From the human T2T-CHM13v2.0 reference genome, Homo sapiens, in assembly GCA_009914755.4 (NCBI GenBank), contig CP068257.2:8896001-8960000 (forward strand): a DNA stretch of 64,000 nucleotides. The letters are read 5' to 3'. Below are positions 1 through 34,104 of this stretch, in pieces. Position 1 is the stretch's first letter. Every line of letters starts with the position of its first letter. The notes under the pieces are model-generated. The model saw nothing but the letters and a program-made list of their open reading frames with translations, did not search any database and had not been told where the DNA came from. Made by a program: the position numbers and the translations under genes.

Positions 1-116
1 AAAAAGAGTGTTTAAAAACTGCTCTACCAAAAGGAAGATTCAACTCTTTGTTTTGAATGTGCAGATCACAAAGAAGTTTCTGAGAATGCTTCTGTCTAGT
101 TTTTATGTGAAGATAT

Positions 117-133
117 TCCCGTTTCCAACGAAG
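117..133 (-). promoter_or_regulatory. Intact CENP-B box (reverse complement of CTTCGTTGGAAACGGGA).
   Basis: The + strand reads tCCCGttTccaaCGAAg. This matches the reverse complement of the essential core nTTCGnnnnAnnCGGGn. Confidence 0.85.
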
Positions 134-288
134 GCCTCTAAGCAGTACAAATATCCACTTTGCAGATTTTGCGAAAAGAGTGTTTCCAAACTGCTCTATC
201 AAAAGAAACGTTCAACTCTGTGAGTTGAATGCACACATCACATAGAAATTTCCCAGAATTCTTCTGTCTAGTTCTTATGTGAAGATAT

Positions 289-305
289 TCCCGTTTCCGA
301 CGAAG
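289..305 (-). promoter_or_regulatory. Intact CENP-B box in the adjacent monomer.
   Basis: The + strand reads tCCCGttTccgaCGAAg. All essential positions are conserved. It lies 172 bp from the previous box. Confidence 0.8.
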
Positions 306-1141
306 GCCTCAAAGCAGTCCAAATATCCACTTGCAGATTCTACGAAACGAGTGTTTCAAAACTGCTCTATGAAAAGGTATGTTCAAATCTGTGAGTTGAA
401 TGCACACATCACAAAGAACTTTCTGAGAATGCATCTGTCTAGATTTATGTAAAGATATTCCTGTTTCAAAGAAAACCTAAAAGCAGTCCAAATATCCACT
501 TGCAGATTCTACGAAAAGAGTGTTTCAAAACTCCTCTATGAAAAGGTATTTTCAACTTTGTGAGTTGAATGCAAACAGCACAAAGAAGTTTCTCAGAATG
601 CTTCTGTCTGGTTTTTATGTGAAGATATTTTCTTTCTCACCATAGGCCTCAAAGCTCTCCAAATGTCCACTTGCAGATTCTTCAAAAAGAGTGTTTCAAG
701 ACTGCTCTATGAAAAGAAAGGTTCAAGTGTGTGAGTTGAATGCCCACATCACAAAGAAGTTTCTGAGAATGCTTTTGTCTACTTTTTATTTGAAGATATT
801 CACATTTCCAACGAAGGCCTGAAAGCATTCCAATTATCCATTTGCATATTCTACCAAAAGAGTTTTCCAAAGCTGCTCTATGTAAAGGTATGTCCGTCTC
901 TGTGAGTTGAATGCAAACATAACAAATTAGGTACTGAGAATGTTTCTGTCTAGTTTTCATGGGAAGGTATTTCCATTTCCACCATATGCTTCAAAAGTCT
1001 CCAAATGTCCTCTTGCAGATTCTATAAAAACAGTGTTTCAAAACAGCTCTATCAAAAGAAAGGTTCAACTCTATGAGTTGAATGCCCACATCACAAAGGT
1101 GTTTCTGAGAATGCTTCTGTCTAGTTTTTATGTGAAGATAT

Positions 1142-1158
1142 TCCCGTTTCCAACGAGG
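1142..1158 (-). other. Decayed CENP-B box (CGAA changed to CGAG).
   Basis: The sequence tcccgtttccaacgagg has a substitution at an essential position. Similar decayed boxes lie at about 1824-1840 (CAAA), 2507-2523 (CGTA), 3364-3380 (TGAA) and 3705-3721 (TGAA). Confidence 0.6.
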
Positions 1159-4100
1159 TCCTTAAAGCAGTCCAAATATCCTCTTGCAGATTCTACAAAA
1201 AGAGTGTTTCAAAACTGCTCTACGAAAAGTTATTTTCAACTCTGTGAGTTGAATGCAAATATCACAAAGATGTTTTTGAGAATGCTTCTGTCCAGTTTTT
1301 ATGTAAAGATATTTCCTTTTCCACTGTAGGCCTCAAAGCTCTCTTGGCTTTGCACTTGCAGATTCTACAAAAAGAATGTTTCAAACTGCTCCTTCAAAAG
1401 AGTGGTTCAGCTCTGTGAGTTGAATGGCCTCATCACAAAGAAGTTTCTGAGAATGCTTCTGTCTAATTTTTATGTTAAGATATTTCTGTTTCCACTGAAG
1501 GCCTCAAAGCAGTCCAAATATCCCCTTGCAGATACTACGAAAAGAGTTTTTCAAAACTGCGCTATGAAAAGGTATTTCATCTCTGTGAGTTGAATGCAAA
1601 CATCACAAAGAAGTTTCTGAAAATGCTTCTGTCTTCTTTTTATGTGAAGGTATATCATTTTCCACCATAGGCCTCAAAGCTTCCCAAATGTCCACTTGCA
1701 GATTCTACAAATGTCTGTTTCAAAACTGCTCTATCAAAAGAAAAGTTCAACTCTCTGAGTTGAATGCACATATCACAAAGAAGTTTCTGAGAATTCTTCT
1801 TTCTAGATTTTATGTGAAGGTATTCCCGTTTCCAACAAAGGCCTCAAATCAGTCCAAATATCCACTTGTGGATTCTACGAAAAGAGTGTTTCAAAACTGC
1901 TCTATGAAAAGGTATGTTCAACTCTGTGAGTTGAATGCAAACATCACAGAGGAGATTCTGAGAATGCTTCTGTCCAGTTTTTATGTGGAGATATTTCCTT
2001 TTCCACCAAAGGCCTCAAAGCTCTCCAAATGACCACTTGCAGATGCTACAAAAACAGTGTTTCAAAACTGTTCTATGAAAATAAAGGTTAACACTGTGAG
2101 TTGAATGCAATCATCACAAAGTAGTTGCTGAGAATGCTTCTGTCTCGTTTTTTTGTGAAGATATTCTCATTTACAGCGAAGGCCTCAAAGCAGTCCAAAT
2201 ATACACTTGCAGATTCTACGAAAAGAGTGTTTCAAAACTGCTCTATGTAAAGTTATGTTCACCTCTCTTAGTTGAATGCAAACATCACAAAGAAGTTTCT
2301 GAGAATTTTTCTATCTAGTTTTTATGTGAGGATATTTCCTTTTCCACTGTAGGCCTCAAAGCTCTCCAAATGTCCACTTGCAGATTGTACAAAGTGAGTG
2401 CTTCAAAACTGCTCTATCAAAAGAAAGGTTCAAATCTCTGAGTTGAATGCCCACATCAAAAAGTTTTTTCTGAGAATGCTTCTATCTAGTTTTTATATGA
2501 AGATATTCCCGTTTCCAACGTAGTCCTTAAAGTAGTCCAAATATCCAATTGCAGATTAAACGAAAAGGGTGTTTCAAAACTGCTCTATGAAATGTTATGT
2601 TCATCTCTGTGTTGGTTGAATGCAAACATCACAAAGAACGTTCTGAAAATGCTTCTGTTTCGTTTTTATGTGAAGATTTTCCCATTTCCAACGAAGGTCT
2701 CAAAGCCGTCCACATATCCATTTGCAGATTCTACGAAAAGTGTGTTTCGAAACTTCTCTATGAAAAGGTGTGTTTAATTCTGTGAGTTGAATGCAACCAT
2801 CACAAAGAAGTTTCTGAGAATCCTCCTGTCTAATTTTTATGTGAAGATATTCCCTTTTCCAACCAAGGCCTTAAAGCAGTCCAAATATCCATTTGCAGTT
2901 TCTACGAAAAGAATGTCTCAAATCTGCTCTATGATAAGGTACTTTCAACTCTGTGAGTTGAATGCGCACATCACAAAGAAGTTTCTGAGAATGCTTATGT
3001 CTAGTTTTTATGTGAAGATATTCCCATTTCCATCGAAGGCCTCAAAGCTGTCCAAATACACACTTGCAGATTCCACGAAAAGAGTGTTTCAAATCTGAGA
3101 TACGACAACGTATGTTCAACTCTTTGTGTTGAACGTAAACATCACAAAGAGGTTTCTAAGAATGCTTCTGTCTAGCTTTTATGTGAAAATATTTCCTTTT
3201 CCACCTTAGGCCTCAAATCTTTCCAAATGTCCACTTGCAGATTCTACTAAAAGGGTGTTTCAAAACTTCTCTACCAAAAGAAAGGTTCAACTCTGTGAGT
3301 GGAATGCACACATCACAAATAAGTTTCTGAGAATGCTTCTGTCTCATTTTTAAGTGAAGATATTCCCGTTTCCAATGAAATCCTCAAGGCAGTCCAAATA
3401 TCCACTTGCAGATTCTACAAAAAGAGTGTTTCAAAACTGCTCTATGAAAAGATATGTTCAACTCTGTGAGTTGAGTGAAAATATCACAAAGAAGTTTCTG
3501 AGAATGCTTCTGTCTAGTTTTTATGTGAAGATATTTCCTTTTCCAATGTAGGCCTCAAAGCTTTCCGAATGTCCACTTACAGATTCTGCAAAAGAGTGTT
3601 TCAAATCTACTCTCTCAAAAGAAAATTTCAACTCTGTGAGTTGAAGACGCACATCACAAAGCAGTTTTTGAGAATCCTTCGGTCTAGTTTTTATGTGAAG
3701 ATATTCCCGTTTCCAATGAAGGCCTAAAATTAGTCCAAATATCCAATTGTAGATGCTACGAAAAGAGTATTTCAAAACTGCTTTGTGAAAAGGTATGTTC
3801 AACTCCTTGAGTTGAATGCCAACATCACAAACAAATTTCTGAGAATGCTTCTGTCCAGTTTTCTTGTGAAGATATTTCCTTTTCCACCATAGGCCTCAAA
3901 GATCTCCAAATGTCCACTTGCAGATTCTACAAAAAGAGTGTTTCAAAACTGCTCTATCAAAGAAAGGTTCAACTCTGTGAGTTGAATGCACACATCAAAA
4001 AGCAGTTCCTCAGAATGCTTCTGTGTTGTTTTTATGTGAAGGTATTTCGTTTTTCACCATAGGCCTCAAAACGCTACAAATGTCCACTTGCAGTTTCCAC

Positions 4101-7100
4101 AAAAAGAGTGAATCAAAACTGCTCTATCAAAAGAACGGTTCAACTCTGTGAGTTGAATGCACACATCACAAAGAAGATTCTGAGAATGTTTCTGTCTAGT
4201 TCTTGTGAAGATATCCCTTTTCCATCAAAGGCCTCAAAGCGGTCCAATTATACACTTGCAAATTCTACAAAAAGAGTGTTTCAAAACTGCTCTATGAAAA
4301 GGAATTTTCAACTTTGTGAGTTGAGTGCACACATCACAAAGAAGTTTCTGAGAATACTGCTGTGTTGTTTTTAGGTGAAGATGTTTCCTTTTTCACCACA
4401 GGCCACAAAGCGCTCCAAATATCCACTTGCAGATTGTACAAAAAAAGTGTTTCAAAGCTGCTCTATCAAAAAAAAGCTTCAACTCTCTGAGTTGAGTGCA
4501 TCCATCCCAAAGAAGTTTCTGAGAATGCTTCTGTCTAGTTTTTATGTGAAGATATTTCCTTTTTCACCATAGGCCTCAAAGCATTACAAATGTCCAATTG
4601 CAGATATTACAAAAAGAGTGTTTCAAAACTGCTCTATCAATAGAAAGGTTCAACTCTGAGAATTGAATGCACACATCACAAAGAAGTTTCTGAGAATGTT
4701 TCTGTCAAGTTTTCTTGAAGATATCTCGTTTCCAACGAAGTTCTCAAAGCGGTCCAAATATCCACTTGCAAATTCTACAAAAAGAGTGTTTCAAAATTGC
4801 TCTATGAAAAGGAGTGTTCCACTCTGTGAGTTGAAAGGAAACAACACAAAGAAGTTTCTGAGAATGCTTCTGTGTAGTTTTTATGTGAAGATATTTCCTT
4901 TTTCACCATTGGCCTCAAAGCCCTCCAAAAGTCCAGTTGCAGATTCTACAAAAAGGTAGTTTCAAAACTGCTCTATCAAAGGAAAGGTTCAACTCTGTGG
5001 ATTGAATGCACACATTACAAAGAAGTTTCTGAGAATGCTTCTGTCTAGTTTTTATGTGAAGATACTTCGTTTTTCACCATAGACTTCAAAGTGCCCTAAA
5101 TGTCCACTTGCAGGTTCTCCAAAAAGAGTGCTTCAAATCTCCTCTATCAAAAGAAAGTTTCAACTCTCTGAGTTGAATGCACACATTACAAAATTATCTG
5201 AGAATGCTTCTGTGAAGTATTTATGAGAAGATATTTCCTTTTTCACCATAGGCCTGAAGGAGCACCAAATGTTCACTTGCAGATTCTATATAAAGAGTGT
5301 TTCAAAACTGCTCTATCAAAAGAAAGGTTCAACTCTGAGTTGAACGAACACATCACCAATAAATTTCTGATAATTATTCCATCCACTTTTTATGTGAAGG
5401 TATCCCCTTTCCAATGACTTCCTCAAAGCGGTCCAAATATCCACTTACACATTCTACAAAAAGAGTGTTTCAAAACTGCTCTATTAAAAGAAAGTTTCAA
5501 CTCTGTGAGGTGAATGTACACATCACAAAGAAGTTTCTGAGAATGCTTCTGCCTAGTTTTTATGTGAAAATATTTTCTTTTTCACCATAGGCTTCAAAGC
5601 ACTCCAATTGTCCACTTGCAAATAGTTTAAAAAGAGTGTTTCAAAATTGCTCTATCAAAAGAAAGGTTGAACTCTGTGGGTTGAATGCACACATCACAAA
5701 GAAGTTTGTGAGAATGCTTCTGTCTAGTTTTTATGTGAAGATACTTCGTTTTTCACTATAGGCCCCAAAGGGCTCCAAATGTCCAGTTGCAGATTCTACA
5801 AAGAGAGTGTTTCAAATCTGCTCTATCAAAAGAAAGGTTCAACTCTGTGAGTTGAATGCACACATCACAAGGAAGATTCTGAGAATGCTTCTGTCTAGTT
5901 TTTATGTGAAGATAGTTCCTTTTACACCTTAGGCCTCAAGGAGCTCCAAATGTCCACTTGCAGATTCTACAAAAGGAATGTTTCAAAACTGCTCTATCAA
6001 AAGCAAGGTTCAATTCTTTGAGATGAACGCACACATCACAAAGGAGTTTCTGGGAATGCTTCTGTCTAGTTTTTAAGTGAAGATGTTCCTTTTCCAATGA
6101 AGGCCTCAAAGCCGTCCAAATATCCACTTGCAAATTCTTCAAAAAGAGTGTTTCAAAACTGCTCAATGAAAAGGAATGTTCAACTCTGTGAGTTGAAAGC
6201 AAACGTCACAAAGAAGTTACTGAGAATGCTTCTGTTTAGTTTTTATGTGAAGATATTTCCTTTTTCACCATAGGCTTCAAAGCGCTCCAAATGTCCACTT
6301 TCAGATTCTACAAAAAAAGTGTTTCAAAACTGCTGTATGAAAAGAAAAGTTGAATTCTCTGAGTTGAATGCACACATCTGAAAAATGTTTATGAGAATGC
6401 TTCTGTGAAGTTTTTATGTGAAGATATTTCCTTTTTCACTGTAGGTATCAAAGAGCTCCAAACGTCCACTTGCGGATTCTACAAAAAGAGTGTTTCAAAA
6501 CTGCTCTATCAAAAGAAATGTTCAATTCTGTGAGTTGAATGCACACATCACAAAGAAGTTCCTGAGAATGCTTCTGGGTAGTTTTTGTGTGAAGATATTT
6601 CCTTTTTCACCATAGGATTCAAAGCGTTCCAAATGTCCACTTGCAGATTCTACAAAAAATGTGTTTCAAAATTGCCCTATCAAAAGAAAGGCTCAACTCT
6701 GTGAGTTGAATGCATACATTCCAAGGAAGATTCTGAGAATGCTTCTGTCTAGTTTTTATGTGAAGATATTTCCTTTGTCACTTCAGGCCTCAAAGTGCAC
6801 CAAATGTCCACTTGCAGATACTACAAAAAGAATGTTTCCAAACTGCACTATCAGAAGAACGGTTTAACTCTGATAGTTGAATGCACACATCACAAAGAAG
6901 TTTCTGAGAATGCTTCTGTCTAGTTTTTGTGAAGATATCCCAATTCTCAAGAATGCCTCAAAGTGGTCAAAATACCCACTTGTAAATTCTACAAAAAGAG
7001 TGCTTCAAAACTGCTGTATGAAAAGGAATGTTCAACTCTGTGAGTTGAATGCAACCAACACAAAGAAGTTTCTGAGAATGCTTCTGTGTAGTTTTTAGGT

Positions 7101-7967
7101 AAAGATATTTCCTTTTTCACCATAGGCCTCAAAGTGCTCCAAATGTCCAGTTGCAGATATTTCAAAAAGATTGTTTCAAAACTACTCTATCAAAAGAAAG
7201 GTTCAACTCTGTGAGTTGAATGCACACAGCACAAAGAAGTTTCTGGGAATGCTTCTGTCTAGTTTTTATGTGAAGATATTTCCTTTTTCACCATTAGCCT
7301 CAAAGCACTCAAATGTCCACTTGCAGATTCTAAAAAAAAGAGTGTTTCAAAACTTCTCTATCAAAAGAAAGGTTCAAAACTTTGAGTTGAATGCACACAT
7401 CCCAAAGAAGTTTCTGGCAATGCCTCTTTCTAGTTTTTATGTGAAGATATTCCTTTTCCAATGAAGGTCTCCAAGCCGTCCAAATATTCAATTGCAAATT
7501 CTACAAAAATAGTGTTTCAAAACTGCTCTATGAAAAGCAATGTTCAACTTGTGAGTTGAAAGCAAACATCACAAAGAATTTTCTGAGAATCCTTCTGTGT
7601 AGTTTTAATGTGAAGATGTTTCCTTTTTCACCATAGGCTTCAAAGTGCTTCAAATGTCTACTTGCAGATTCTACAAAAAGAGTGTTTCAAAACTCCTCTA
7701 TCAAAAGAAAGGTTCAACCTTTTGAGTTGAATCCACACCCCACAAAGAAGTTAATGGGAATGCTTCTGTCTAGTTTTTGTGAAGATATCCCTTTTCCAAC
7801 GAAGTCCTCATATTGGTCCAAATATACACTTGCAAATTCGACAAAAAGAGTGTTTCAAAACTGCTTTATGAAAACGAATGTTCAACTCTGTTAGTTGAAA
7901 GTGAACAACACAGGAAGTTTCTCAGAATGCTTCTGTGTAGTTGTTATGTCAACATATTTCCTTTTTC

Positions 7968-8224
7968 ACCATAGCCCTCAAAGCACTCCAAATGTCCCCT
8001 TGCAGATTCTACAAAAAGAGGGTTTCAAAACTGCTCTATCAAAGAAGGCTTCAAAGCTGTACAAATATCCACTTGCAAATTCTACAAAAAGTGTTTTTCA
8101 AAACTGCTCAATGAAAAGGAATGTTCACCTCTCTGAGTTGAAAGCAAAACACACAAAGAAGATTCTGAGAATGCTTCTGTCTGGTTTTTATGTGAAGATA
8201 TTTCCTTTTTCACCATAGGCCTCA
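7968..8224 (-). repeat. Alpha-satellite interval with an internal deletion of about 100 bp that fuses a partial A-type monomer to a B-type monomer at about 8040/8041.
   Basis: The ccatag anchors at 7968 and 8212 are 244 bp apart instead of 342. The fusion reads ctctatcaaa|gaaggcttcaaagctgtacaaatatccacttgc. Confidence 0.5.
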
Positions 8225-11200
8225 AAGCACTCCAAATGTCCACTTGCAGATTGAAAAAAAAAAGAGTGTTTCAAAACTGCTCTATCAAAAGAACGGTTCA
8301 AGTCTGTGAGTTGAATTCACACATCAAAAAGAAGTTTCTGAGAATGCTTCTATATATTTTTTGTGAAGATATCACATTTCTAATGAAGGCCTCAAAGCGA
8401 TCCAAATATGCACTTGCAAATTCTTCAAAAAGAGTGTTTCAAACATCTCAATGAAAAGAAATGTTCAGATCCGTGTCTTGAATGCACACATCACAAAGAA
8501 GTTTGTGAGAATTGTTCTGTCTAGTTTTTATGTGAAGATACTTCGTTTTTCACTATAGGACCCAAAGGGCTCCAAATGTCCAGTTGCAGATCCTACAAAG
8601 AGAGTGTTTCAAAACTGCTCTATCAAAAGAAAGGTTCAACTCTGTGAGTTGAATGCACACATCAAAAGGAAGATTCTGAGAATGCTTCTGTCTAGTTTTT
8701 GTGTGAAGATATTTCCTTTTTCACCTTTTTCACTCCATTCCACTCGAGTTGATGCCATTCCATATCATTGCACTCGAGGCTACTTCATTCCATTCCATTC
8801 CAATCCATTCTTTTCGTGTCCATTCAATTCAAATGCATTCCATTCCATTCCATTCCATTCCATTCCATTCCATTCCATTCCATTTTACTCGAGTTGATTC
8901 CATTCCATTCTATTGCATTCCATTCCAATCCATTCCATTCCATTCCATTCCACTCCAGTTGATTCCATTCAATTCTATTGCATTGGAGGCCAGTTCATTC
9001 CATTCCATTCCTTTCCATTCTAATGCATTCCATTTCATTCCCTTCCAACCCATTCCATTCCATTCCATTCCATTCCATTCCATTCCACTTGACTCCATAC
9101 CATTTCATTCTATAGCATTCCATTCCATTCCATTCCATTCCATTTCACTCCATTCCACTCGAGATGATTCCATTGCATTCTATTGCATTTGAGGCCACTC
9201 CTTTCCATTCCATTCCATTCCATTCTCTTCGGGTCCATTCAATTCAAATGCATTCCATTCCATTCCATTCCAGTCGAGGTGATTCCATTCCATTCTATTG
9301 CATTCCATTCCATTCCATTGCATTCCATTCCATTCCATTGCATTCCATTCCATTCCATTCCATTCCATTCCATTCCACTCGAGTTGATTCCATTCCATTC
9401 TAATGCATTCCATTCCATTCCATTCCATTCCAACCCATTCCATTCCATTCCACTCGACTTGATTCCATTCCATTATATTGCATTCGAGGCCACTTCATTC
9501 GATTCCATTCATTTCCATTCAATTCTTTTCGTGTCCATTCAAGTCACATGCATTCCATTCCATTGCATTCCATTCCATTCCGTTCGAATCCATTCCATTC
9601 CATTCCATTCCACTCAAGTGGATTCCATTCCATTCCATTCCATTCCATTGTATTCCATTCCATTTCACTGCATTCCATTCCATTCCATTCCATTGCATTC
9701 CATTCTGTTCCAGGTGAATTGATTCCATTCCATTCCATTCCATTCCATTCCATTCCATTCCATTGCATTCCATTCCATTCCACTGCAGTTGATACCATTC
9801 CATTCTATTGCATTTCATTCCATTCCATTCCATTCCATTCTATTCCATTCCATTCCATTCTATTCCATTCCATTCCATTCCATTCCGTTCCATTTCACTC
9901 CATTCCACTCAAGATGATTCCGTTGCAATCTAATCTATTGCATTCGAGGCCACTTCATTCCATTCCATTCCATTCCATTCTCTTCAGGTCCATTCAATTC
10001 AAATGCATTCCATTCCATTCCATTCCAGTCAACTCGAGTTGATTCCATTCCATTCTATTGCATTGTACTGCATTCCATTCCATTCCATTCCATTCCATTC
10101 CATTCCATTCCATTACATTACATTCCATTCCACTCGAGTTGATTCCATTCCACTTTATAGCATTCCATGCCATTCCATTCCATTCCATTCCATTCCACTC
10201 GAGCTGATACCATTCCATTCTATTGAATTCCATCCCATTCCATTCCATTCCATTCAATTCCACTCCATTCCATTCGAGATGATTCCATTGCAATCTATTG
10301 CATTCGAGTCCACTTAATTCCATTCCATTCCATTCCATTCCATTCCATTCCATTCCATTCCATTCCATTCTCCTGGGTCCATTCAATTCAATTGCATTCG
10401 ATTCAATTCCATTCCATTCCATTCCATTCCATTCAACTCGAGGTGATTCTGTTCCATTCTATAGCATTCCATTCTGTTCCATTCCACACCATTTCATTCC
10501 ATTACATTCCATTACATTCATTCCATTCCAATCCATTCCATTCCACTCCATTTCATTCCATTTCATTCCACTCCATTCCATTCCATTCCATTCCATTCCA
10601 TTCCACTCCATTCCATTCCATTCCATTCCATTCCATTCCATTCCACTCGAGTTGATTCCATTCCATTCTATTGCATTCCATTCCATTCCATTCAATTCCA
10701 TTTCACTACATTCCACTTGAGATGATTCTATTGCAATCTATTGCAGTCGAGGCCACTTCATTCCATTCCACTCCATTCCATTCTCTTCGGGTCCATTCAA
10801 TTAAAATGCTTTCCATTCCATTCCATTCCATTCCATTCCATTCCATTCAACTCGAGTTGATTCCATTCCATTCTATTGCATTCCATTCCATTCCGTTCCA
10901 TTCCATTCCTTTCCATTCCATTGCATTCCATGCCATACCACTCGAGATGATTCCATTCCAATCTATTGCATTCCATGCCATTCCTTTCCATTCCATTCCA
11001 TTCCATTCCACTCGAGATACCATTCCATTCCTTTGCAGTCCATTCCATTCCACTCGAGATACCATTCCATTCCTTTGCATTCCACTAGAGATGATTCCAT
11101 TCCATTCTATTGCATTCGAAGCCACTTCATTCCATTCCATTCCATTCCAATCTCTTCAGGTCCATTCAATTCAAATGCATTCCATTCCACTCCATCCCAT

Positions 11201-12924
11201 TCCATTCCAATCCATTCCATACCATTCCATTCGAGTTGATTCCATTTCATTCTAATGCATTCCATTCCATTCTGTTCCATTCCATTCTATTCCACTCGAA
11301 TTGATTCCATTCCATTCTATTGCATTCCATTCCATTCCATTCCATTCCATTCCATTCCATTCTCTTCCATTCCATTCAACTCCATTCCATTCCACTTGAG
11401 TTGATTCCATTCCATTCTATTGCATTCCATTCCATTCCATTCTATTCCATTCCACTCGAGTTGATACCATTCCATTCAATTGCATTGAATTTCATTCCAT
11501 TCCATTCTGTTCCATTCCATTCCAATCCACTCGAGTTGATTCCATTCCACTCTAATGCATTCCATTCCATTCCATTCCATTCCATTCCATTCCATTCCAT
11601 TCCATTCCATTCCATTCCATTCCAATCGAGTTGATTCCATTTCATTCTATTGCATTGCATTCCATTCCATTCCATTCTATTCCATTACACTCGATTTGAT
11701 TACGTTTCATTCTGTTGCATTCCATTCCATTTCATTCTATTCCACTCCATTCAACCCAAGTTGATTCCAATCCATTCTATTGCATTCGAGGCCACTTCTT
11801 TCCATTCCATTCCATTCCATTCCATTCCATTATTTTCGGGTCCATTCAATTCAAATGCATTGCATTGCATTCCATTCCATTCCATTCCATTCCGTTACAT
11901 TCCATTCCATTCCGCTCGAGTTTATTAAATTCCATTCTCTTGCATTCTATTCCATTCCATTCCATTGCACTCGAGTTGATTCTATTCCATTCCATTCCAT
12001 TTCATTCCATTCCACTCGAGTTGATTCCATTCCATTCTATTGCATTCCATTCCATTCCATTCCATTCCATTCCTTTCCATTCCACTCGATTTGATACCAG
12101 TCAATTCTCCTGCATTCCATTCCATTCTATTCCATTCCATTCCATTTCTTTCCATTCCATTCCATTCCACTCGAGAAGATTCCATTCCATTCTATTGCAT
12201 TCAAGGCCACCTCATTCCATTCAATTCCATTCCATTCCAATCCATTCCACTCTAATTGATTTCATTCCATTCTATTGCATTCCATTCCATTCCATTCCAT
12301 TGCATTGCATTCCATTCGAGTTGATTCCATTCCATTCCGTTCCACTCGAGTTTATTCCTGTCCATTCTATTGCATTTGAGGCCACTTCATTCCATTCCAT
12401 TCCATTCCATTCCATTCCATTCCATTCCATTCTATTGCATTCCATTCCATTCCATTCCACTCCATTCCATTCCATTCCATTCCATTCCATTCCATTCTAT
12501 TGCATTCCATTCCATTCCATTCCACTCGAGTTGATTCTATTCCATTCTATGGCATTCCATTCCATTCCATTCAGTTCCTTTCCATTCCACTCTAGTTGAA
12601 TCCATTCCATTCTATTGCATTCCATTCCATTCCATTCCATTCCATTCCATTCCATTCCACTCGAGTAGATTCCATTCCCTTCCATTGCATTCCATTCCAT
12701 TCCATTCCATTAAATTCCATACCTCTCAAGTTGATTCCATTACATTCTATTGCATTATATTCCATTCCATTCCATTCCATTCAACTCCATTCCAACCGAG
12801 TTGTGTCCATTCCATTACATTGCATTCGAGGCCACTTCCTTCCATTCCATTCCATTCCATTCAAATTCTTTCGTGTCCATTCAATTCAAATGCATTTCTT
12901 TCCTTTCCATTTCATTGCATTCCA

Positions 12925-13649
12925 ATCCATTCCATTCCATTCCATTCCACTCAAGTTGATTCCATTCCATTCCATACCAGTCGAGCTGATTCCTTTCCAT
13001 TCTATTTCATTCGAGGCCCCTTCATTCCATTCCATTCCTTTCTGTTCTATTGCATTCCATTTCACTGCATTGCAATCCATTCCATTCCATTCCATTCCAT
13101 TGCAATCCATTGCATTCCAGTCGAGTTGATTCCATTCTATTCCACTCCCTTCCAATGCATTCCATTCCATTCCATTCCATTCCATTCCATTCCACTCGAG
13201 TTGATACCTTTCCATTCTATTGCATTCTATTGCATTCCATTCCATTCCATTCCATTCCATTCCATTCCATTCCATTCCATTCCATTTCACTTCATTCCAC
13301 TCCATTCCATTCCATTCCATTTCACTTCATTCCACTCGAGATGATTACATTGCAATCTATTGCATTCGAGACCAATTCATTCCATTCCATTCCCTTCCAT
13401 TCTCTTCGGGTCCATTCAATTCAAATTCAGACCATTAACTTCCATTCCATTCCAGTCCATTCCATTCAACTCGAGTTGGTTCTTTTCCATTCTATTGCAT
13501 TCCATTCCATTCCATTCCATTCCTTTGCATTGCATTCCATTCCATTCCATTCCTTTGCATTCCATTCCATTCCATTCCATTCCATTCCTTTGCATTCCAT
13601 TCCATTCCATTCCATACCACTCGAGTTGATACCTTTCCATTCTATTGCA
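12925..13649 (+). repeat. Copy 1 of a local tandem duplication (about 580-725 bp unit) within the HSat3-like domain.
   Basis: It is near-identical to 13650-14230. Lines 13321-13380 and 13981-14040 are identical, and the unique string caaattcagaccattaacttcc occurs only in these two copies. Translated ORFs on both strands share long identical peptide stretches, which supports the duplication. Confidence 0.8.
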
Positions 13650-14230
13650 TTCCATTCCATTCCATTCCACTCAAGTTGACTCCATTCCACTCCATACCAG
13701 TCGAGCTTATTCCTTTCCATTCTATTGCATTCGAGGCCCCTTCATTCCATTCCATTCCTTTCTGTTCTATTGCATTCCATTTCACTGCATTGCAATCCAT
13801 TCCATTCCATTCCATTCCATTGCACTCCATTGCATTCCAGTCGAGTTGATTCCATTCTATTCCACTCCCTTCCAAGGCATTTCATTCCATTCCATTCCAT
13901 TCCATTACATTACATTACATTCCACTCGAGTTGATACCTTTCCATTCTATTGCATTCCATTCCATTCCATTCCATTCCATTTCACTTCATTCCACTCGAG
14001 ATGATTACATTGCAATCTATTGCATTCGAGACCAATTCATTCCATTCCATTCCCTTCCATTCTCTTCGGGTCCATTCAATTCAAATTCAGACCATTAACT
14101 TCCATTCCATTCCATTTCATTCCATTAAACTCGAGTTGATTCTTTTCCATTATATTGCATTCCATTCCATTCCATTCCATTCCTTTGCATTCCATTCCAT
14201 TCCATTCCACTCGAGTTGATTCCATTCCAT
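13650..14230 (+). repeat. Copy 2 of the same tandem duplication.
   Basis: See copy 1. The offset changes from about 726 to about 660 bp along the unit because of pentamer-count indels. Confidence 0.8.
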
Positions 14231-17200
14231 TCTATAGCATTCCATTCAATTCCATTGCATTCCATTCCATTCCATTTCATTCCTTTCCACTAGAGATGAT
14301 TCCATTCCATTCTATTGCTTTCCAAGCCACTTCTTTCCATTCCATTCCATTCCAATCTCTTCGGGTCCATTCAATTAAAATGCATTCCATTCCATTCCAT
14401 TCCATTCCATTCCATTCCATTCCATTCCATTCCATTCGAGTTGATTCCATTTCATTCTAATGCATTCCATTCCATTCCAATACATTCCATTCCATTCCAC
14501 TCGAGTTGATTCCATTCCATTCTATTGCATTCCATTCCATTCCATTGCATTCCATTCCACTCGAGTTGATACCTTTCCATTCTATTCCATTTCATTCCAT
14601 TCCATTCCATTCCATTCCACTAGAGATGATTCCATTCCATTCTATTTATTTCGAAGCCACTTCATTCCATTCCATTCCATCCAATCTCTTCAGGTCCATT
14701 CCATTCAAATGCATTCCATTCCATTCGATTCCATTCGATTCCGTTCCATTCCATTCTGTTCCATTCCATTCCATTCCATTCCATTCCATTCCATTCCAAT
14801 CGAGTTGATTCCATTCCATTCCATTCCATTCCATTCCACTCGATTTGATTCCATTCCATTCTGTTGCATTCCATTCCATTTCATTCTATTCCACTCCATT
14901 CAACACGAGTTGATTCCAATCCATTCTATTGCATTTGAGGCCACTTCTTTCCATTTCATTCCATTCCATTCCATTCCAATCCATTTCACCCTTGTTGATT
15001 CCATTCCATTCTATTGCATTCCATTCCATTCCATTCCATTCCATTCCTTTCCACTCCATTCCATTCCTTTCCTCTCCATTTGATTCTATTCCATTCTGTT
15101 GCATTCCATTCCATTTCATTCTATTCCACTCCATTCAACCCGAGTTGATTCCCATCCATTCTATTGCATTCCAGGCCACTTCTTTCCATTCCATTCCATT
15201 CCATTCCATTCCGCTATTTTCGAGTCCATTCAATTCGAATGCATTCCATTCCATTCGATTCCATTCCATTCCGTTACATTCCTTTCCATTCCACTCGAGT
15301 GTATTCCATTCCATTCTATTGCATTCTATTCCATTCCATTCCATTCCACTCGAGTTGATTCCATTCCATTCCATTCCATTCCATTCCATTCCGTTCAACC
15401 CGAGTTGATTACATTCCATGCTATTGCATTCCATTCCACTCCATTCCATTCCATTCCACTCGAGTTGATTCCTTTCCATTCTATTGCATTTGAGGCCACT
15501 TCATTCCATTCCATTCCATTCCTTTCTATTGCATTCCCTTCCATTCCATTCCATTCCATTCCATTCCATTCCATTCCATTCCATTCGAGTTGATTCTATT
15601 CCATTCTATTGCATTCCATTCCATTCCATTCCATTCCATTCCATTCCATTCCATTCCATTCCATTCCATTGCTATCTTTCCATTCCACTCGGGTTGAATC
15701 CATTCCATTGAATTGAATTTCCTTCCATTCCACTCCATTCCATTACAATCCACTCGAGTTTATTCCATTCCATTCTATTGCATTCCATTCCATTCCATTC
15801 TATGCCACTCGTGTTGTTTCCATTCCATTGTATTCAATTCCATTCCATTCTATTCCATTCCACTCAAGTTGATTCCATTCCATTCTATTGCATTGCATTC
15901 CATTCCATTCCATTCCATTCCATTCCACTGGAGATTTTTTTTATTCCTTTCCATTCCATTCGATTTGATTCCATTCCATTCTATTGAATTCTATTCCATT
16001 CCATTCCATTCCATTCCACTCGAGTTGATTGCATTCCATTCCATTCCATTCCATTTCATTCCATTCAACCCGAGTTGATTACATTCCATTCTATTCCATT
16101 CGAGGTCACTCCATTCCATTCCATTCCATTCCATTCCATTCCATTCCATTCCATTCCAATCCTTTCTGGTCAATTCAATTCAAATGCTTTCCATTCCATT
16201 CCATTCCACTCTAATTGATTTCATTCCATTCAATTGCATTCCATTCCATTCCATCCATTCCATTCCATTCCATTCCACCTGAGTTGATTCCATTCCATTC
16301 TATTGCATTCCATTCCATTCCATTCCACTCCATTCCATTCCATTCCATTCCGCTCGATTTGATTCCATTCTATTCTGTTACATTCCATTCCATTTCATTC
16401 TATTCCACTCCATTCAACCCGAGTTGATTCCAATCGATTCTATTGCATTCGATGCCACTTCTTTCCATTCCATCCAAATCCATTCCATTCCATTCCATTC
16501 CATTCCATTCCATTCCATTCCATTCTATTCCATTATTTTCGGGTCCATTCAATTCAAATGCATTCCATTCCATTCCATTCCATTCCATTCCATTGCATTC
16601 CATTCCATTCCATTCCACTCGAGTTTATTCCATTCCATTCTATTGCATTCTGTTACATTCCATTCCATTCCACTCTTGTTGATTTCATTCCATTCCATTC
16701 CATTTCATTCCATTCAACCCGAGTTGATTCCATTCCATTCTATTGCATTCGAGGCCACTTGATTCCATTCCATTCCATTCCATTGCATTCCCTTCCACTC
16801 CATTCTTTTCTGGTCAATTCAAGTCGAATGTTTTCCATTCCATTCCATTCCACTCGAGTTGACTCCATTCCATTCTATTGCATTCCATTCCATTCCTTTC
16901 TCTCCACTCGAGTTGATACCTTTGAATTCTACTGCATTCCATTCCATTCCATTCCATTCATTGCAGTTGATTCCATTCCATTCCATTCCATGCCATTCCA
17001 TTCCATTCCATTCAAGTTGATTCCATTCCATTCCATGCCATTCCATTCCATTCCATTCAAGTTGATTCCATTCCATTCCATTCTATTGCATTCCATTCCA
17101 TTCCTTTCCATTCCATTCCACTCTAGTTGATTCCATTCCATTCTGTAGCATTCCATTCCGTTCCATTCCATTCCATTCCTTTCCATTCCATTCCATTCAA

Positions 17201-20200
17201 TACCATTCCATTCCATTCCTTTCCACTCGGGTTGATTCCAATCCACTCTATTGGATTCGAGGCCACTTCATACCATTGCATTGCATTCCATTCCATTCCA
17301 TTCCATTCCATTCCATTCCATTCCATTCCATTCCATTGCATTCCATTCCACTCTAGTTGATTCCATTCCATTCTATTGCATTCCATTCCATTCCATTCCA
17401 TTTCACTCCGGTTGATTCCATTCCATTCTCTTGCATTCCATTCAATTCCTTTCCATTTGGTTCCATTCCATTGCATTCCATTCCACTCGAGTTAATTCCA
17501 TTCCTTTATACTGCATTCCGTTCCATTTCATTCCATTCCATTCCATTCCATTCCGTTCCTTTCCATTCCATTCCATTCCATTATATTACATTAACTTCCA
17601 CTCCATTCCACTCGAGTTGATTCCATTCCATTCTATTGCATTCGAGGCCACTTTATGCCATTCCTTTCCATTGCATTCTATTGCATTCCTTTCCATTCCA
17701 TTCCATTCCATTCCATTCCATTCAACTCGTGTTGATTTCATTCCATTCTATTTCATTCAAGACCACATCATTCCATTCCTTTCCATTCCATTCTTTTCTG
17801 ATCCATTCAATTTAGATGCATTCCCTTCCGTTCCATTCCATTCAATTCCATTCCATTCCATTCTTTTCCTTTACACTCGAGTTTATTCCATTCCATTCTA
17901 TTGCATTCCATTCCAGTCCATTCCATTGCTTTCCATTCCAGTCCATTCCATTGCACTCCTTTTCATTCCATTCCATTCCATTCCACTCGAGTTGATTCCA
18001 CTCCATTCTGTTCCATTCCATTCCATTCCATTCCACTCAAATTGATTCCATTTCATTGTATTGCATTCCATTCTGTTCCATTCCATTCCATTCCATTCCA
18101 CTCCAGTTGATTCCATTCCATTCTATTGTATTCCATTCCAATCCATTCCATTCCATTCCAATCCATTCCACTCGAGCTAATTCCTTTCCATTCTATTGCA
18201 TTCTAGGCCACTTCATTCCATTCCATTCTATTGCATTCCGTTCCATTCCATTCCATTCAATTCCATTCCATTGCATTCCATTCCATTCCATTCCATTCCA
18301 TTCCATTCCATTCCATTCCATTCCATTCCATTCCATTGCATTCCTTTCCACTCGGGTAGATTCCATTCCAATCCATTCCATTCCATTCCATTCCAATTCC
18401 ATTCCATTCCATTCCACTAGGGTTGATTCCATTCCATTCTATTGCATTCCATTGCATTCCATTCCATTCCATCCGATTCCACTCGTGTTGATTAGACTCC
18501 TTTCTATTGCATTCCATTCCCTTCCATTTCATTCCATGCCATTCCACTCAATTCCATTATATTCCATTCAACTCTATTGCATTCCATTCCATTCCATTCC
18601 ATTCCATTCCAGTAGAGTTGATTCCATTCCATTCTATTGCAATCAATGCTACATCGTTCCATTCCATTCCGTTACTTTCTATTCCATTCCATTCCATTCC
18701 ATTCCATTCCATTCCATTCCATTCCATTCTAGTTGATTCCATTCCATTCCATCCCATTCCATTCCATTCCATTGGAGTTGATTACATTCCATTCTATTGC
18801 ATTCCTTTCCATTCCATTCCATTCCATTCCATTTCAATCCCCTCGAGTTGATTCCATTCCATTGTTTTGCCTTCCATTCCATTCCATTGCATTCCATTCC
18901 ATTCCATTCCACTCGAGTTGTTTCCATTCCATTCTATTGCATTCCATTCCCTTCCATTCCATTCCATTGCATTCCATTCAATTCCAATCCATTCCATTCC
19001 ATTCCACTCGAGTTGATTCCATTCCAATCTATTGCATTCGAGGGCACTTTATTTCATTTCATTCCGTTCTATTCCATTATTTTCGAGTCCATTCAATTCA
19101 AATGCATTCCATTCCATTTCATTCCATTCCACTCCATTCAAATCCGTTTCATTCCATTCCACTCAAGGTGATTCCATTCCATTCCATTGTTTTCGAGGCC
19201 CCTCTAATCCATTCATTTCCATTCCATTCTATTGCATTCAAAGCCAGTTCATTCCTTTCCATTACATTCTATTGCGTTCCATTCCATTACATTACATTCC
19301 AATCCATTCCATTCCACTCGAGTTGATTCCTTTCCATTCTATTGCTTCCATTCCACTCCATTCCATTCCATTCCATTTCAGTCCATTCCATTCCACTCGA
19401 GTTGATTCCAGTCTATTCTATTGCTTTCCATTCCCTTCCATTCCATTTCTTTCCAGTCCATTCAATTCCATTCCATTAAATTCCACTCGAGTTGATTCCA
19501 TTCCATTCTATTGCACTCGAGACCACTTCATTCCATTCCATTCCGTTCCTTTCCTTTCCATTCCAATCCATTCCATTGCATTCCATTTTTTCGAGGTCCA
19601 TTCAATTCAAAAGTATTCCAATCCATTCCATTCCATTCTACTCCATTCCATTCCATTCCATTCTATTCCATTATATTCCATTCCACTCGAGTTGATTCCA
19701 TTCCATTCTATTGCCTTCCATTCCATTCCATTTCATTCCATTGCATTCCATTCCACTCGAGTTGATTCCATTCCATTCTATTACAGTCACGGCCACTACA
19801 TTCCATTCAATTCCCTTCCATTCCATTGCATTCCACTCGAGTTGATTCCACTCCATTCTATTGCATTCCATTCCATTCCATTCCATTCCGGTTAATTACT
19901 TTCCATTCTATTGCATTCGAGGCCACGTCTTCCAATTCCATTCCATTGCATTGTATTGCATTCCATTCCTTTCCATTCCATTCCATTCCATTCAATTCCA
20001 TTCCATTCCAATCCATTCCATTCTATTCCATTCCATTCCATTTCATTCCATTCCTTTCCACTTGGGTTGATTCCACTCCAATCCATTCCATTCCATTCCA
20101 TTCCATTCCATTCCATTCCATTCCATTCCACTAGAGTTGATTCCATTCCATTCTATTGCATTCCATACCCTTCCATTCCATTCCAATCAATTCCATTCCA

Positions 20201-23200: not shown

Positions 23201-23204
23201 TTCC

Positions 23205-23470
23205 ATTCCATTCCCTTCCATTTCATTCCATTCCATTCTATTGCATTCCATTCCCTTCCATTCCTTTCCGTTCCGTTCCGTTCCATTCCATTCCATTCCA
23301 TTCCATTCCCTTCCATTCCTTTCCGTTCCGTTCCATTCCATTCCATTCCATTCCATTCCATTCCATTCCATTCCTTTCCGTTCCGTTCCATTCCATTCCA
23401 TTCCATTCCATTCCATTCCCTTCCATTCCTTTCCGTTCCGTTCCATTCCATTCCATTCCATTCCATTCCA
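23205..23470 (+). repeat. Micro higher-order repeat (about 115-120 bp, 2.3 copies) carrying the CGTTCCGTTCC pentamer variant.
   Basis: The block cccttccattcctttccgttccgttccattccattccattccattccattcc… repeats in tandem. The minus-frame translation shows the repeating peptide NGTERNGREWNGMEWNGTERNGKEWKG. Confidence 0.7.
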
Positions 23471-29400: not shown

Positions 29401-30315
29401 TCCATTACATTAGATGCTAATCCTTTAAAAGCCATTCTACTCCTTTCGAGTCCATTCCATTCCTTTGCATTTGAGTCCATTCCATTCCATTCAATTCTAT
29501 TACAATCCAGTCCATTCCTTTGTATTCCATGCCTATCCATTCCATTCCATTCCATTCGTTTCAATTCCATTCCATTCCATTGGAGTCCATTCCATTCCAT
29601 TCGAGTCTGTTCCATTCCATTGCTTTTCATTCCAATACATTCCACTGCATTTCATTTCATTCGAGTGCATTCCATTCCAATACACTCGAGTCAATTCCAT
29701 TCCATTCCATTTCATTTGGGTCCATTCATTTCATTCATGTCCATTCCATTCTATTTCATTCCTTTCAAGTCCTTTTCATTCCATTCCATTCCATTCAATT
29801 CCACTCCTTTCCATTCCATTAAATTGCATTCCATTCCTTTCCATTTCTTTCAGGTCCTTTCAATTCAGCTGCATTCCATTCGAGTCCATTCCATTCCATT
29901 CAATCCCATTCGAGTCCATTCCATTAAATTCCGTTCCATTCCATTCCATTCCATTCCTTTCCATTCAGTTCCATTCGGATCAATTCCATGCCATTCCATT
30001 CGAGTCCATTCCAATCCATTCCATTCCATTCCGTTCCATTCGAGTCCATTCCATTCCATTCAATTCCACTCCATTTGAATCCATTCCATTCCATTCGAGT
30101 CCATTCCTTTCCATTCCATTCCATTCGAGTCCACTCCATTCCATTCCATTCCATTCCACACGAGTCCTCTCCATTCTATTCCACTCCATTTCAATCCATT
30201 CCATTCCATTCGAGTGCATTCCTTTCTATTCCATTCCATTCTATTACATTCCATTCCATTCGAGTCCATTCCCTTCCATTCCATTCAATTCCATTCCACT
30301 CCATTCCATTCCATT

Positions 30316-32700: not shown

Positions 32701-33469
32701 CATTCCCTTCCATTCCATTCGATTCCATTCCATTCGAGTCCATTCCATTCCATTCCATTCCATTGCATTGCATTGCATTCCATTCCATTCTATTTCTTTC
32801 GCGTCCATTCCATTCCATTCAATTCCATTTCATTCAGGTCCATTCCACTGCATTCTATTCGAGGTCATTCCAATGCATTTCATTTGATTTGTGTCCATTC
32901 AATTGTATTTCATTATATTCCACTAGAGGCGATTCCTTTCCGTTCCGTTCCATTCCATTCGAGTCCATTCCATTTCATTTGAGTCCATGCCATTAAATTC
33001 CATTCCAGTCCATTCCATTCCATTCATTTCAATTTCATTCCTTTCCATTCCTTTCAGGTCCATTGAATTCACTTGCATTCCATTCGTGTACATTCCATTC
33101 CATTCCATTCCATTCCTTTACAATTCATTCGTGTCAATTCCATTCCATTTCATTCCATTCGAGTGCATTTGCATTTTTTTTCCATTACATTCCATTCTAT
33201 TTGAGTCCATTCCATTCTGATACATTCCATTCCATTCGAGTCCTCTCAATTCCGTTCCATTCCTTTCCAGTCCATTTCATTCCAGTCCATTCCATTCCAT
33301 GCTATTCCATTTGAGTCCATACCATTCCTTTCAATTCGAATCCATTCCATTCAAACCCATTCCATTCCAATACATTCCATTCCATTCCATACGAATCCAT
33401 TCCATTCCTATCCAAACCACTCTACTCCAATCCATTCCATTCCTTTCCATTTGTGTCCAATCAATTCCA

Positions 33470-34085: not shown

Positions 34086-34104
34086 TCCATTCGAGTCCAT
34101 TCCA

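What the first reader, a model, noticed from the sequence alone, without database searches (positions are those of the whole stretch)
8715..8740. Abrupt alpha-satellite to pentameric-satellite junction with no spacer or transposable element
The alpha monomer is cut after …gtgaagatatttcctttttcacc, where the consensus would continue ataggcctcaaagc. Five T residues later cactccattccactcgagttg begins. No L1, Alu or unique sequence lies between the two satellite classes. I also see no target-site duplication at the junction. An exact breakpoint like this between an alpha array and an HSat array is a useful chromosome-specific landmark. It may mark an ancient unequal-exchange or breakage event.
Basis: seen in the sequence. 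Interest (0 to 1): 0.55.

Follow-up and report, generated by a model that had tools for sequence, protein, structure and literature searches.

The report
Direct alpha-satellite to HSat3 junction
This is a real but ordinary boundary in primate pericentromeric DNA, where an old, degenerate alpha-satellite array is joined directly to a (CATTC)n human-satellite-3 array, with a small repair-type scar at the joint and no mobile element.

Summary
Window 1-8727 is monomeric 171-bp alpha satellite with about 81% identity between monomers and no higher-order repeat. From 8728 to 64000 the sequence is uninterrupted, single-orientation (CATTC)n HSat3.

Every base at the joint can be assigned. Alpha alignments end at 8725-8728. 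The best HSat3 self-alignments (86-89% over 133 bp) all start exactly at 8728. No transposable element, unique sequence or Rfam family is present.

- Three of the Ts belong to the HSat3 sub-unit, whose internal copies read CCA-TTTCACTCCATTCCACTCGAG.
- The other two are either alpha or part of a 9-bp tandem duplication. A 96.4% paralogue 2.8 kb upstream reads CACCTTAGG at the same place. The duplication, (CTTTTTCAC)x2 at 8716-8733, straddles the joint.

A junction repeat that long arises in about 2-4 in 10,000 random alpha/HSat3 joins. This favours microhomology-mediated or templated end joining at a shared TTTCAC hexamer. A blunt join remains possible.

The break lies inside the alpha A-box (pJalpha box). 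Homologous unequal exchange is not supported. The chromosome of origin, presence in other individuals and read support could not be tested, because no collection held the junction. The feature belongs to a known kind and is of low interest.

The parts
1..8727 (+). Monomeric (divergent, non-HOR) alpha-satellite array. It has 50 full monomers plus a truncated 51st, all in one orientation.
   Evidence: TRF period 171, 80% matches. Monomer phasing and consensus. Mean identity is 0.80-0.82 at every lag from 1 to 20, so there is no higher-order repeat. A-box and B-box motifs sit at the expected monomer position.
8478..8727 (+). The last 250 bp of alpha before the joint. It is a 96.4% paralogue of 5681-5930, and the similarity runs right up to the breakpoint.
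   Evidence: 9 mismatches in 250 gapless positions, against about 81% background identity. The paralogue continues CACCTT|AGGCCTCAAGG.
8703..8727 (+). Truncated final alpha monomer, 23-25 of 171 bases: GTGAAGATATTTCCTTTTTCACC(TT).
   Evidence: Alignment to the other 50 monomers. BLAST alpha hits end at 8725-8728.
8713..8727 (+). Truncated A-box (pJalpha box, TTCCTTTTYCACCRTAG). It is cut after 13-15 of its 17 bases.
   Evidence: The motif string is taken from PMC5109768. Nine intact copies occur at the same monomer position elsewhere in the array.
8716..8733 (+). Tandem direct repeat (CTTTTTCAC)x2 straddling the joint. The second copy ends in the hexamer TTTCAC, which alpha and the HSat3 unit share.
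   Evidence: Read directly. A junction repeat of 10 or more bases arises in 2e-4 of 20,000 random alpha/HSat3 joins, and in 4e-4 with the alpha end fixed.
8726..8727 (+). Two T residues of ambiguous origin. They are either alpha (variant CACCTT, as in the paralogue) or part of the duplicated or templated 9-mer.
   Evidence: CACCTT occurs in 2 of 21 CACC-type monomers, one of them the paralogue. TTTTTCACTCC occurs nowhere else in the HSat3.
8728..8860 (+). First HSat3 sub-unit (about 133 bp): TTTCACTCCATTCCACTCGAGTTGAT...GAGGC.ACTTCATTCC...CATTCAATTCAAATGCATTCC.
   Evidence: 86-89% identical over 133-138 bp to 9143-9275, 9893-10030, 10701-10833 and 9438-9575. All of these alignments start at 8728. 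The same context is seen.
8728..26310 (+). HSat3 block 1. It is rich in ACTCGAGTTGAT and TCTATTGCATT motifs and resembles HSat3B.
   Evidence: Motif counts per 2 kb. Near matches to the Altemose B1 and B3 24-mers are confined to or concentrated in this block. The end of the block is read.
26311..59595 (+). HSat3 block 2. It has the CATTCGAGTCCATTCC type and resembles HSat3A1/A2.
   Evidence: TTGAT almost disappears. There are exact hits to the HSat3A1 24-mer at 28239 and the HSat3A2 24-mer at 41984.
59596..64000 (+). HSat3 block 3. It is a CACTC-rich variant in which the TCGAG motif is lost, and it runs off the window.
   Evidence: Counts. Sequence.

Best explanation
This is a genuine germline junction in a primate (most likely human) pericentromere. 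An old, inactive monomeric alpha-satellite layer was broken inside the A-box (pJalpha box) of one monomer. It was then joined by an illegitimate, non-homologous repair event to an HSat3 unit broken just before its TTTCACTCC segment.

Proposed mechanism, in steps:
1. The alpha end finished at ...CCTTTTTCACC.
2. Its terminal CC re-primed on the CC nine bases upstream and copied TTTTTCAC. This is a synthesis-dependent microhomology-mediated end-joining (SD-MMEJ) or polymerase-theta-type templated insertion. Equivalently, a simple TTTCAC-microhomology join was followed by a 9-bp slippage duplication.
3. The newly made TTTCAC paired with the TTTCAC of the HSat3 end.
4. The result is ...CCTTTTTCAC-CTTTTTCAC-TCCATTCC...
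5. The HSat3 side then grew, or had already grown, by ordinary tandem-repeat amplification into a layered array of more than 55 kb.

The junction has no function of its own. It is a scar marking where HSat3 abuts a dead alpha layer.

Shown: direct abutment, no TE, the positions of both breakpoints to within 3 bases, and the non-random junction repeat.

Inferred: the repair pathway, the order of events and the germline origin.

The confidence of 0.5 applies to this specific microhomology/templated mechanism. That the joint is a real, TE-free, illegitimate end-joining junction of some kind I hold at about 0.85.
For: - Every base is assigned to one satellite or the other. Alpha homology ends at 8725-8728. 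HSat3 homology begins at 8728 in all of the best alignments.
- No TE-sized interruption exists. No 200-bp window from 8.7 to 64 kb has less than 34% exact CATTC-pentamer coverage. Alpha monomer spacing is regular. No Rfam family is present.
- The 10-mer CCTTTTTCAC occurs twice across the joint. Random joins reach that length in 2e-4 of trials, or 4e-4 with the alpha end fixed.
- TTTCAC is native to both partners. CCTTTTTCAC occurs 13 times in the alpha part. ATTTCAC occurs 28 times and CATTTCACTCC 8 times in the HSat3 part.
- The five-T version TTTTTCACTCC occurs nowhere else in the HSat3. This fits the extra Ts having been copied from the alpha side.
- Another out-of-register joint with a 3-bp AGG overlap lies 0.7 kb upstream in the same alpha layer. 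Illegitimate joins therefore do occur in this array.
- Published reviews list 'HSat expansions' among the typical decay features of divergent alpha layers (PMC9549924).
Against: - The 96.4% paralogue of the last 250 alpha bases reads CACCTT|AGG. The two extra Ts could therefore simply be alpha, and the join could be blunt with no templated synthesis. Only 2 of 21 CACC-type monomers carry TT there, so this agreement has some weight.
- The repeat statistic was chosen after seeing the sequence.
- The pathway cannot be proven from a single scar that may be millions of years old.
- The T-run may have changed length since the event.
- No independent copy of the junction was found in any collection. 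Germline origin and read support are therefore untested.
Confidence: 0.5

Rival explanations
1. Blunt non-homologous end joining. The alpha monomer carried the variant ...CACCTT|AGG and was cut after TT (8727). The HSat3 unit was cut between CCA and TTTCAC. The two ends were ligated with no microhomology, no filler and no templated synthesis. On this reading the 9-bp tandem repeat is a coincidence.
For: - The last 250 bp of alpha (8478-8727) are 96.4% identical to 5681-5930. That paralogue reads CACCTTAGGCC at the same place.
- Two alpha Ts plus three HSat3 Ts account exactly for the five Ts. The T-run before CACTCC is 3 long in 10 of 15 HSat3 cases.
- This model needs a single event.
Against: - With this alpha end fixed, only 4e-4 of random HSat3 breakpoints give a junction repeat of 10 or more bases, and 8e-3 give 9 or more.
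- The first 23 bases of the truncated monomer match the generic A-type monomers perfectly (for example monomers 27, 37, 39 and 48). They differ from the paralogue at 2 positions. Paralogy of the last 25 bases is therefore not secure.
Confidence: 0.33
2. Assembly artefact. A chimeric read or a mis-join fused an alpha contig to an HSat3 contig, and no such junction exists in the genome.
For: Nothing positive. The only point in its favour is that no independent copy was found in any searchable collection. Those collections are microbial or metagenomic and hold little human satellite, so the absence says little.
Against: - Overlap-based assemblers join on kilobase-scale overlaps, and alpha and HSat3 share only 6-10 bases here.
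- The joint carries a repair-type signature: the repeat across the joint, and breakpoints in register with both repeat units.
- Direct alpha/satellite III contiguity has been known experimentally since the early 1990s. The titles of Vissel et al. 1992 and Jackson et al. 1992 appear in the reference list seen.
Confidence: 0.05
3. Homologous unequal exchange. Mis-paired recombination between repeat arrays created the boundary.
For: Unequal exchange does shape each array internally. Examples are the 250-bp paralogue and the layered HSat3 blocks.
Against: Homologous exchange needs extended homology. The two partners share no more than TTTCAC at the break. They are otherwise unrelated 171-bp and 5-bp repeat families.
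Confidence: 0.03
4. Retrotransposition seeding. A (GGAAU)n satellite-III transcript was reverse-transcribed by L1 machinery at a TT|A nick in the alpha monomer. The five Ts would be the complement of a short poly(A) tail. The seed later amplified into the array.
For: The orientation fits, with a T-run followed by the CATTC strand on the nicked strand. The inferred alpha cut CCTT|AG is a weak L1-endonuclease-like site. The endonuclease site preference comes from my own knowledge.
Against: - Three of the five Ts are native to the HSat3 sub-unit, so at most 0-2 bases could be a poly(A) remnant.
- No target-site duplication can be seen, because the far end of the HSat3 lies outside the window.
- The first HSat3 unit is in register with genomic sub-units and does not look like a transcript 3' end.
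Confidence: 0.02

Closest known systems
HSat expansions within or next to divergent ('dead') alpha-satellite layers of human pericentromeres, as mapped in T2T-CHM13 (Altemose et al., bioRxiv 10.1101/2021.07.12.452052; Miga and Alexandrov review, PMC9549924)
   Same: Both have monomeric, non-HOR alpha directly flanked by a large classical-satellite array, a single strand orientation, and no TE within the satellites at this point (for the literature; for this window).
   Different: Those papers describe arrays at map level. I found no nucleotide-level description of this breakpoint, the 9-bp junction repeat or the A-box cut. I could not place this window on a chromosome.
Cloned alphoid/satellite III boundaries: chromosome 10 (Jackson, Mole and Ponder 1992, NAR 20:4781) and chromosomes 13/14/21 (Vissel, Nagy and Choo 1992)
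   Same: Both show contiguity of alpha satellite with a (CATTC)n-derived satellite. HSat3A1/A2-type sequence, which block 2 resembles, is reported on chromosomes 10, 13, 14, 21, 22 and Y (Altemose 2014 Table 1 and Table S1).
   Different: Those papers are not held in the library, so their junction sequences could not be compared. The chromosome 10 boundary clone cMEN375 is classed as HSat2A1, not HSat3. No HSat2 24-mer matches this window.
Synthesis-dependent microhomology-mediated end joining (SD-MMEJ) or polymerase-theta-mediated end-joining scars (repair-junction class; known to me from the literature, not re-read here)
   Same: Both have a short templated insertion that is a direct repeat of sequence within about 10 bases of the break. 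In both, the insertion creates or uses a microhomology with the other end. Here these are the CC primer, the copied TTTTTCAC and the TTTCAC overlap.
   Different: That class is defined experimentally by dependence on the repair pathway. Here there is only one old scar, and a blunt-join reading is not excluded.

Membership tests
Alpha satellite, monomeric/divergent layer | Head-to-tail tandem repeat of about 171 bp | tested here: met
   TRF period 171 over 47.3 + 4.0 copies. 51 phased monomers of 169-173 bp, apart from one of 244 bp.
Alpha satellite, monomeric/divergent layer | A-box (pJalpha, TTCCTTTTYCACCRTAG) or B-box (CENP-B) at the AB position of each monomer | tested here: met
   9 exact pJalpha boxes. 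10 CENP-B-box matches at 1 mismatch or fewer, and 2 minimal CENP-B boxes, all at the same monomer offset. Motif strings are from PMC5109768.
Alpha satellite, monomeric/divergent layer | No higher-order repeat: no lag at which monomers are about 95-100% identical | tested here: met
   Mean identity is 0.80-0.82 at lags 1-20. The only pair above 92% is monomer 34 versus 50, a local 250-bp duplication.
Alpha satellite, monomeric/divergent layer | Assignment to a suprachromosomal family or monomer class (for example SF4, SF5 or older) | not testable with these tools
   This needs the HumAS-HMMER monomer models or a T2T cenSat track. Only the A/B pattern BB?ABABA?ABABABBBBABABAABAABAAABAAA?AAAABAA?ABAABAA could be described.
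Human satellite 3 (HSat3) | Derived from the (CATTC)n pentamer, on a single strand | tested here: met
   TRF period 5, 11,045 copies, 8786-63992. 66% of bases lie in exact CATTC-rotation pentamers. GGAAT is almost absent, so there are no inversions.
Human satellite 3 (HSat3) | Not HSat2: lacks HSat2-specific 24-mers | tested here: met
   The HSat2A1, 2A2 and 2B top 24-mers give 0 matches even at 2 mismatches.
Human satellite 3 (HSat3) | Subfamily assignment (A1-A6, B1-B5) by subfamily-specific 24-mers | tested here: inconclusive
   Only the single most common 24-mer per subfamily was available. Block 2 has one exact hit each for 3A1 and 3A2. Block 1 has only near matches to B1 and B3. The full 24-mer list is held only for 2A1.
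Transposable-element-mediated junction (L1/Alu insertion or transduction) | TE-derived sequence, a poly(A) tail or a target-site duplication at the joint | tested here: not met
   8600-8727 aligns to alpha and 8728-8860 aligns to HSat3 units, with nothing left over. No 7SL or other Rfam hit. The T-run is native to the satellites. A TSD at the far end of the array cannot be examined.
SD-MMEJ / polymerase-theta-type end-joining scar | Microhomology at the joint, plus a short insertion templated from sequence close to the break | tested here: inconclusive
   The (CTTTTTCAC)x2 repeat and the shared TTTCAC fit this class and are unlikely by chance (2e-4 to 4e-4). The paralogue's CACCTT allows a blunt join without any templated bases.
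SD-MMEJ / polymerase-theta-type end-joining scar | Dependence on the alternative end-joining machinery | not testable with these tools
   This is a historical event and no experiment is possible on it.
Assembly mis-join | Lack of spanning reads, or a coverage break at the joint | not testable with these tools
   No read data are available. The junction is absent from all searchable collections, which does not bear on the question.

The most novel reading that the evidence does not exclude
The joint is a preserved germline scar of templated, microhomology-mediated end joining (SD-MMEJ or polymerase-theta type). That event planted or fixed an HSat3 array against a dead alpha layer, and the break fell inside the A-box (pJalpha box). 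If many alpha/HSat junctions across T2T genomes share A/B-box breakpoints and templated repeats, the pathway by which classical satellites invade decaying centromere layers would be identified.
Probability: 0.35. Interest if true: 0.3.

Novelty: already known. Interest (0 to 1): 0.13.

Why it matters
It matters little on its own. Direct alpha/satellite III contiguity and HSat expansions in divergent alpha layers are established features of human pericentromeres, and complete assemblies already annotate such boundaries.

The modest added value is at nucleotide level:
- The breakpoint is fixed to within 3 bases.
- It lies in the A-box.
- It carries a 9-bp junction repeat typical of microhomology-mediated or templated repair.

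The unique 30-mer across the joint could serve as a locus-specific marker once it is placed on a chromosome. A genome-wide survey of such joints could show which repair pathway builds satellite-satellite boundaries.

Tried and rejected
1. I searched for independent copies of the junction and found none.
   - The exact 30-mer gave 0 hits in genome contigs, metagenome contigs and viral contigs.
   - A gapped pattern that also allowed the single-copy (no duplication) form gave 0 hits.
   - The junction-spanning ORF, as 97-aa and 71-aa versions, is not on record.
   - A protein search with the junction peptide returned only alpha-satellite ORFs covering the alpha half.
   - These collections are essentially microbial, so the absence is uninformative.

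2. I tried to place the window on a chromosome through long HSat3 ORFs of 457 and 367 aa. Neither is on record.

3. I tried HSat3 subfamily typing with the Altemose 2014 24-mers. Only one 24-mer per subfamily was usable. The held part of the full list covers HSat2A1 only.

4. The classic boundary papers (Jackson 1992 and 1993) are not held. A full-text search for the junction string found nothing.

5. I looked for a higher-order periodicity in the HSat3. Only weak, irregular spacings appeared (1159, 660, 720 bp) and no clean nested repeat.

6. Rejected readings:
   - A TE or unique fragment at 8726-8760.
   - The five Ts as a spacer or poly(A) remnant.
   - Homologous unequal exchange.

Full report
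**1. What is there**

The window begins with a tandem array of 171-bp units from 1 to about 8724 (TRF: 47.3 + 4.0 copies, 77-80% matches).

- Anchoring on GTGAAGATATTTCC gives 51 in-phase units of 169-173 bp.
- Their majority consensus is a typical alpha-satellite monomer. From memory, it is the reverse complement of the usual published orientation.
- Mean pairwise identity is 0.80-0.82 at every lag from 1 to 20. This is therefore monomeric, divergent alpha with no higher-order repeat.
- Monomers carry either an A-box or a degenerate B-box at the same offset. There are nine exact matches to the pJalpha pattern TTCCTTTTYCACCRTAG, a pattern quoted in PMC5109768. Only two minimal CENP-B boxes are present.

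From 8728 to the end of the window the sequence is (CATTC)n-derived.

- TRF reports one period-5 array, 8786-63992.
- 66% of bases lie in exact CATTC-rotation pentamers.
- GGAAT is virtually absent, so the orientation never flips.
- GC skew changes from about -0.07 to about -0.65 at the joint.
- HSat2-specific 24-mers from Altemose et al. 2014 (PMC4022460, Table 1) are absent even at 2 mismatches, while HSat3 24-mers match. The array is therefore HSat3.

**2. The junction, base by base**

The sequence reads ...GTGAAGATATTTCCTTTTTCACC(8725) TT(8726-8727) TTTCACTCCATTCCACTCGAGTTGAT.... I ran BLAST of 8690-8860 against the rest of the window.

- Alpha hits end at 8725-8728.
- The five best HSat3 hits all start exactly at 8728. 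They cover 133-138 bp at 85.5-89% identity, against 9143-9275, 9893-10030, 10701-10833, 9438-9575 and 14275-14407.
- The internal copies read ...CATTCCA-TTTCACTCCATTCCACTCGAG(A/T)TGAT....
- In the HSat3 part the T-run before CACTCC is three long in 10 of 15 cases and never five.

Nothing between 8600 and 8900 is left unexplained, so there is no TE or unique fragment.

The same holds for the whole window:

- No 200-bp window in the HSat3 falls below 34% exact-pentamer coverage.
- Alpha spacing is regular except for one 244-bp unit.
- Rfam gives no hit, including no 7SL/Alu-like match.

**3. The two remaining Ts and the junction repeat**

Two observations pull in different directions.

(a) The last 250 bp of alpha (8478-8727) are a 96.4% copy of 5681-5930, with 9 mismatches and no gaps. 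Background identity is about 81%. The paralogue continues CACCTT|AGGCCTCAAGG. CACCTT occurs in only 2 of the 21 monomers that have CACC at this position. On this reading the alpha ends at 8727 and the join is blunt: two alpha Ts plus three HSat3 Ts.

(b) The 9-mer CTTTTTCAC is tandemly duplicated across the joint, at 8716-8724 and 8725-8733. Equivalently, the 10-mer CCTTTTTCAC occurs twice.

- In 20,000 simulated joins of random alpha and HSat3 breakpoints from this window, a junction repeat of 10 or more bases appeared with frequency 2e-4.
- With the alpha end fixed, the frequency was 4e-4 for 10 or more bases and 8e-3 for 9 or more.
- TTTCAC is native to both partners. CCTTTTTCAC occurs 13 times in alpha and CATTTCACTCC 8 times in HSat3.
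- The five-T form TTTTTCACTCC occurs nowhere else in the HSat3.

This is the pattern expected from two routes. One is a TTTCAC-microhomology join plus a 9-bp slippage duplication. The other is a one-step synthesis-dependent microhomology-mediated join, in which the terminal CC re-primes nine bases upstream, copies TTTTTCAC, and the new TTTCAC pairs with the HSat3 end.

Weighing the two, the paralogue evidence is worth about 10-25-fold and rests on one base. The repeat evidence is worth 10^2 to 10^3-fold before discounting for post-hoc choice of statistic. I favour the microhomology/templated model moderately (about 0.5) over the blunt join (about 0.33).

Either way, this is illegitimate end joining and not homologous unequal exchange.

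**4. Position of the break**

On the alpha side the cut falls after 13-15 of the 17 bases of the A-box (8713-8727). This is the AB region, which the Miga and Alexandrov review describes as the main site of difference between A-type and B-type monomers (PMC9549924). On the HSat3 side the cut falls at the start of a recurring sub-unit of about 133 bp. With a single junction, no preference for the A-box can be claimed.

**5. Context**

The HSat3 is layered.

- Block 1 (8728 to about 26310) carries ACTCGAGTTGAT and TCTATTGCATT motifs. Its only 24-mer affinities are near matches to HSat3B1 and B3.
- Block 2 (about 26311-59595) is of the CATTCGAGTCCATTCC type. It contains the exact HSat3A1 24-mer at 28239 and the exact HSat3A2 24-mer at 41984.
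- Block 3 (about 59596-64000) is rich in CACTC and lacks TCGAG.

According to Altemose 2014, HSat3A1 and A2 map to chromosomes 10, 13, 14, 21, 22 and Y. That is a weak hint at best, and I do not assign a chromosome.

The alpha layer also holds another illegitimate joint. Monomer 47 is 244 bp, with a 73-bp out-of-register duplication joined at AGG.

**6. Comparison with what is known**

- Alpha/satellite III contiguity has been cloned before. The reference list cites chromosome 10 (Jackson 1992) and chromosomes 13/14/21 (Vissel 1992).
- T2T work maps HSat arrays beside divergent alpha. The preprint found was read.
- The review lists 'HSat expansions' among the signs of decay in dead alpha layers.

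This junction is an instance of that known kind. I found no nucleotide-level description of it.

**7. What could not be done**

No human or ape reference, read set, RepeatMasker or alpha-monomer HMM is available among the tools. Chromosome, population frequency, read support and SF class therefore remain open. The searches of microbial, metagenomic and viral collections and of the protein collection all came back empty. Given what those collections contain, this is uninformative. The old boundary papers are not held.

**8. Verdict**

- This is an ordinary, known kind of pericentromeric feature. Interest is 0.13.

Noticed in passing
window 7948-8191 (joint near 8046; TRF 7978-8116): One alpha unit is 244 bp instead of 171. 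After ...CTATCAAAGAAGG the sequence jumps back to CTTCAAAGC..., a 73-bp out-of-register partial duplication (83% between copies). The trinucleotide AGG is shared by both parental positions. This is a second illegitimate joint in the same alpha layer.
   Followed up: partly
window 5681-5930 and 8478-8727: A 250-bp alpha segment is duplicated 2.8 kb apart at 96.4% identity (9 mismatches, no gaps), against about 81% background. On the left the similarity starts abruptly in mid-monomer. On the right it is cut off by the HSat3 junction. This suggests the junction post-dates the duplication, or that a conversion tract was stopped by it.
   Followed up: partly
window ~26260-26320 and ~59590-59600: The HSat3 is not one homogeneous array. 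There are two abrupt compositional transitions. At about 26.3 kb, TTGAT and TGCAT motifs are lost. At about 59.6 kb, CACTC rises five-fold and TCGAG is lost. Together these divide it into three variant blocks, all in the same orientation.
   Followed up: partly
window 1-3865 versus 3866-8727: The pattern of alpha monomer types changes. Monomers 1-22 roughly alternate B-box-like and A-box types, with a run of four Bs. Monomers 23-51 are mostly A-type, with a shorter B-like unit every 3-5 monomers. Only two minimal CENP-B boxes (118, 290) exist in the whole array. This may mean two alpha layers of different age.
   Followed up: no
window 8728-64000, e.g. 39895-41268, 28975-30078: The stop-poor (CATTC)n sequence yields 25 ORFs of 230-457 aa on the + strand. 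These are artefacts of repeat composition. The two tested are not on record in the protein collection. Alpha-satellite ORFs, by contrast, are abundant there as 'hypothetical proteins', some filed under Shigella or E. coli, which points to human contamination of microbial records.
   Followed up: partly
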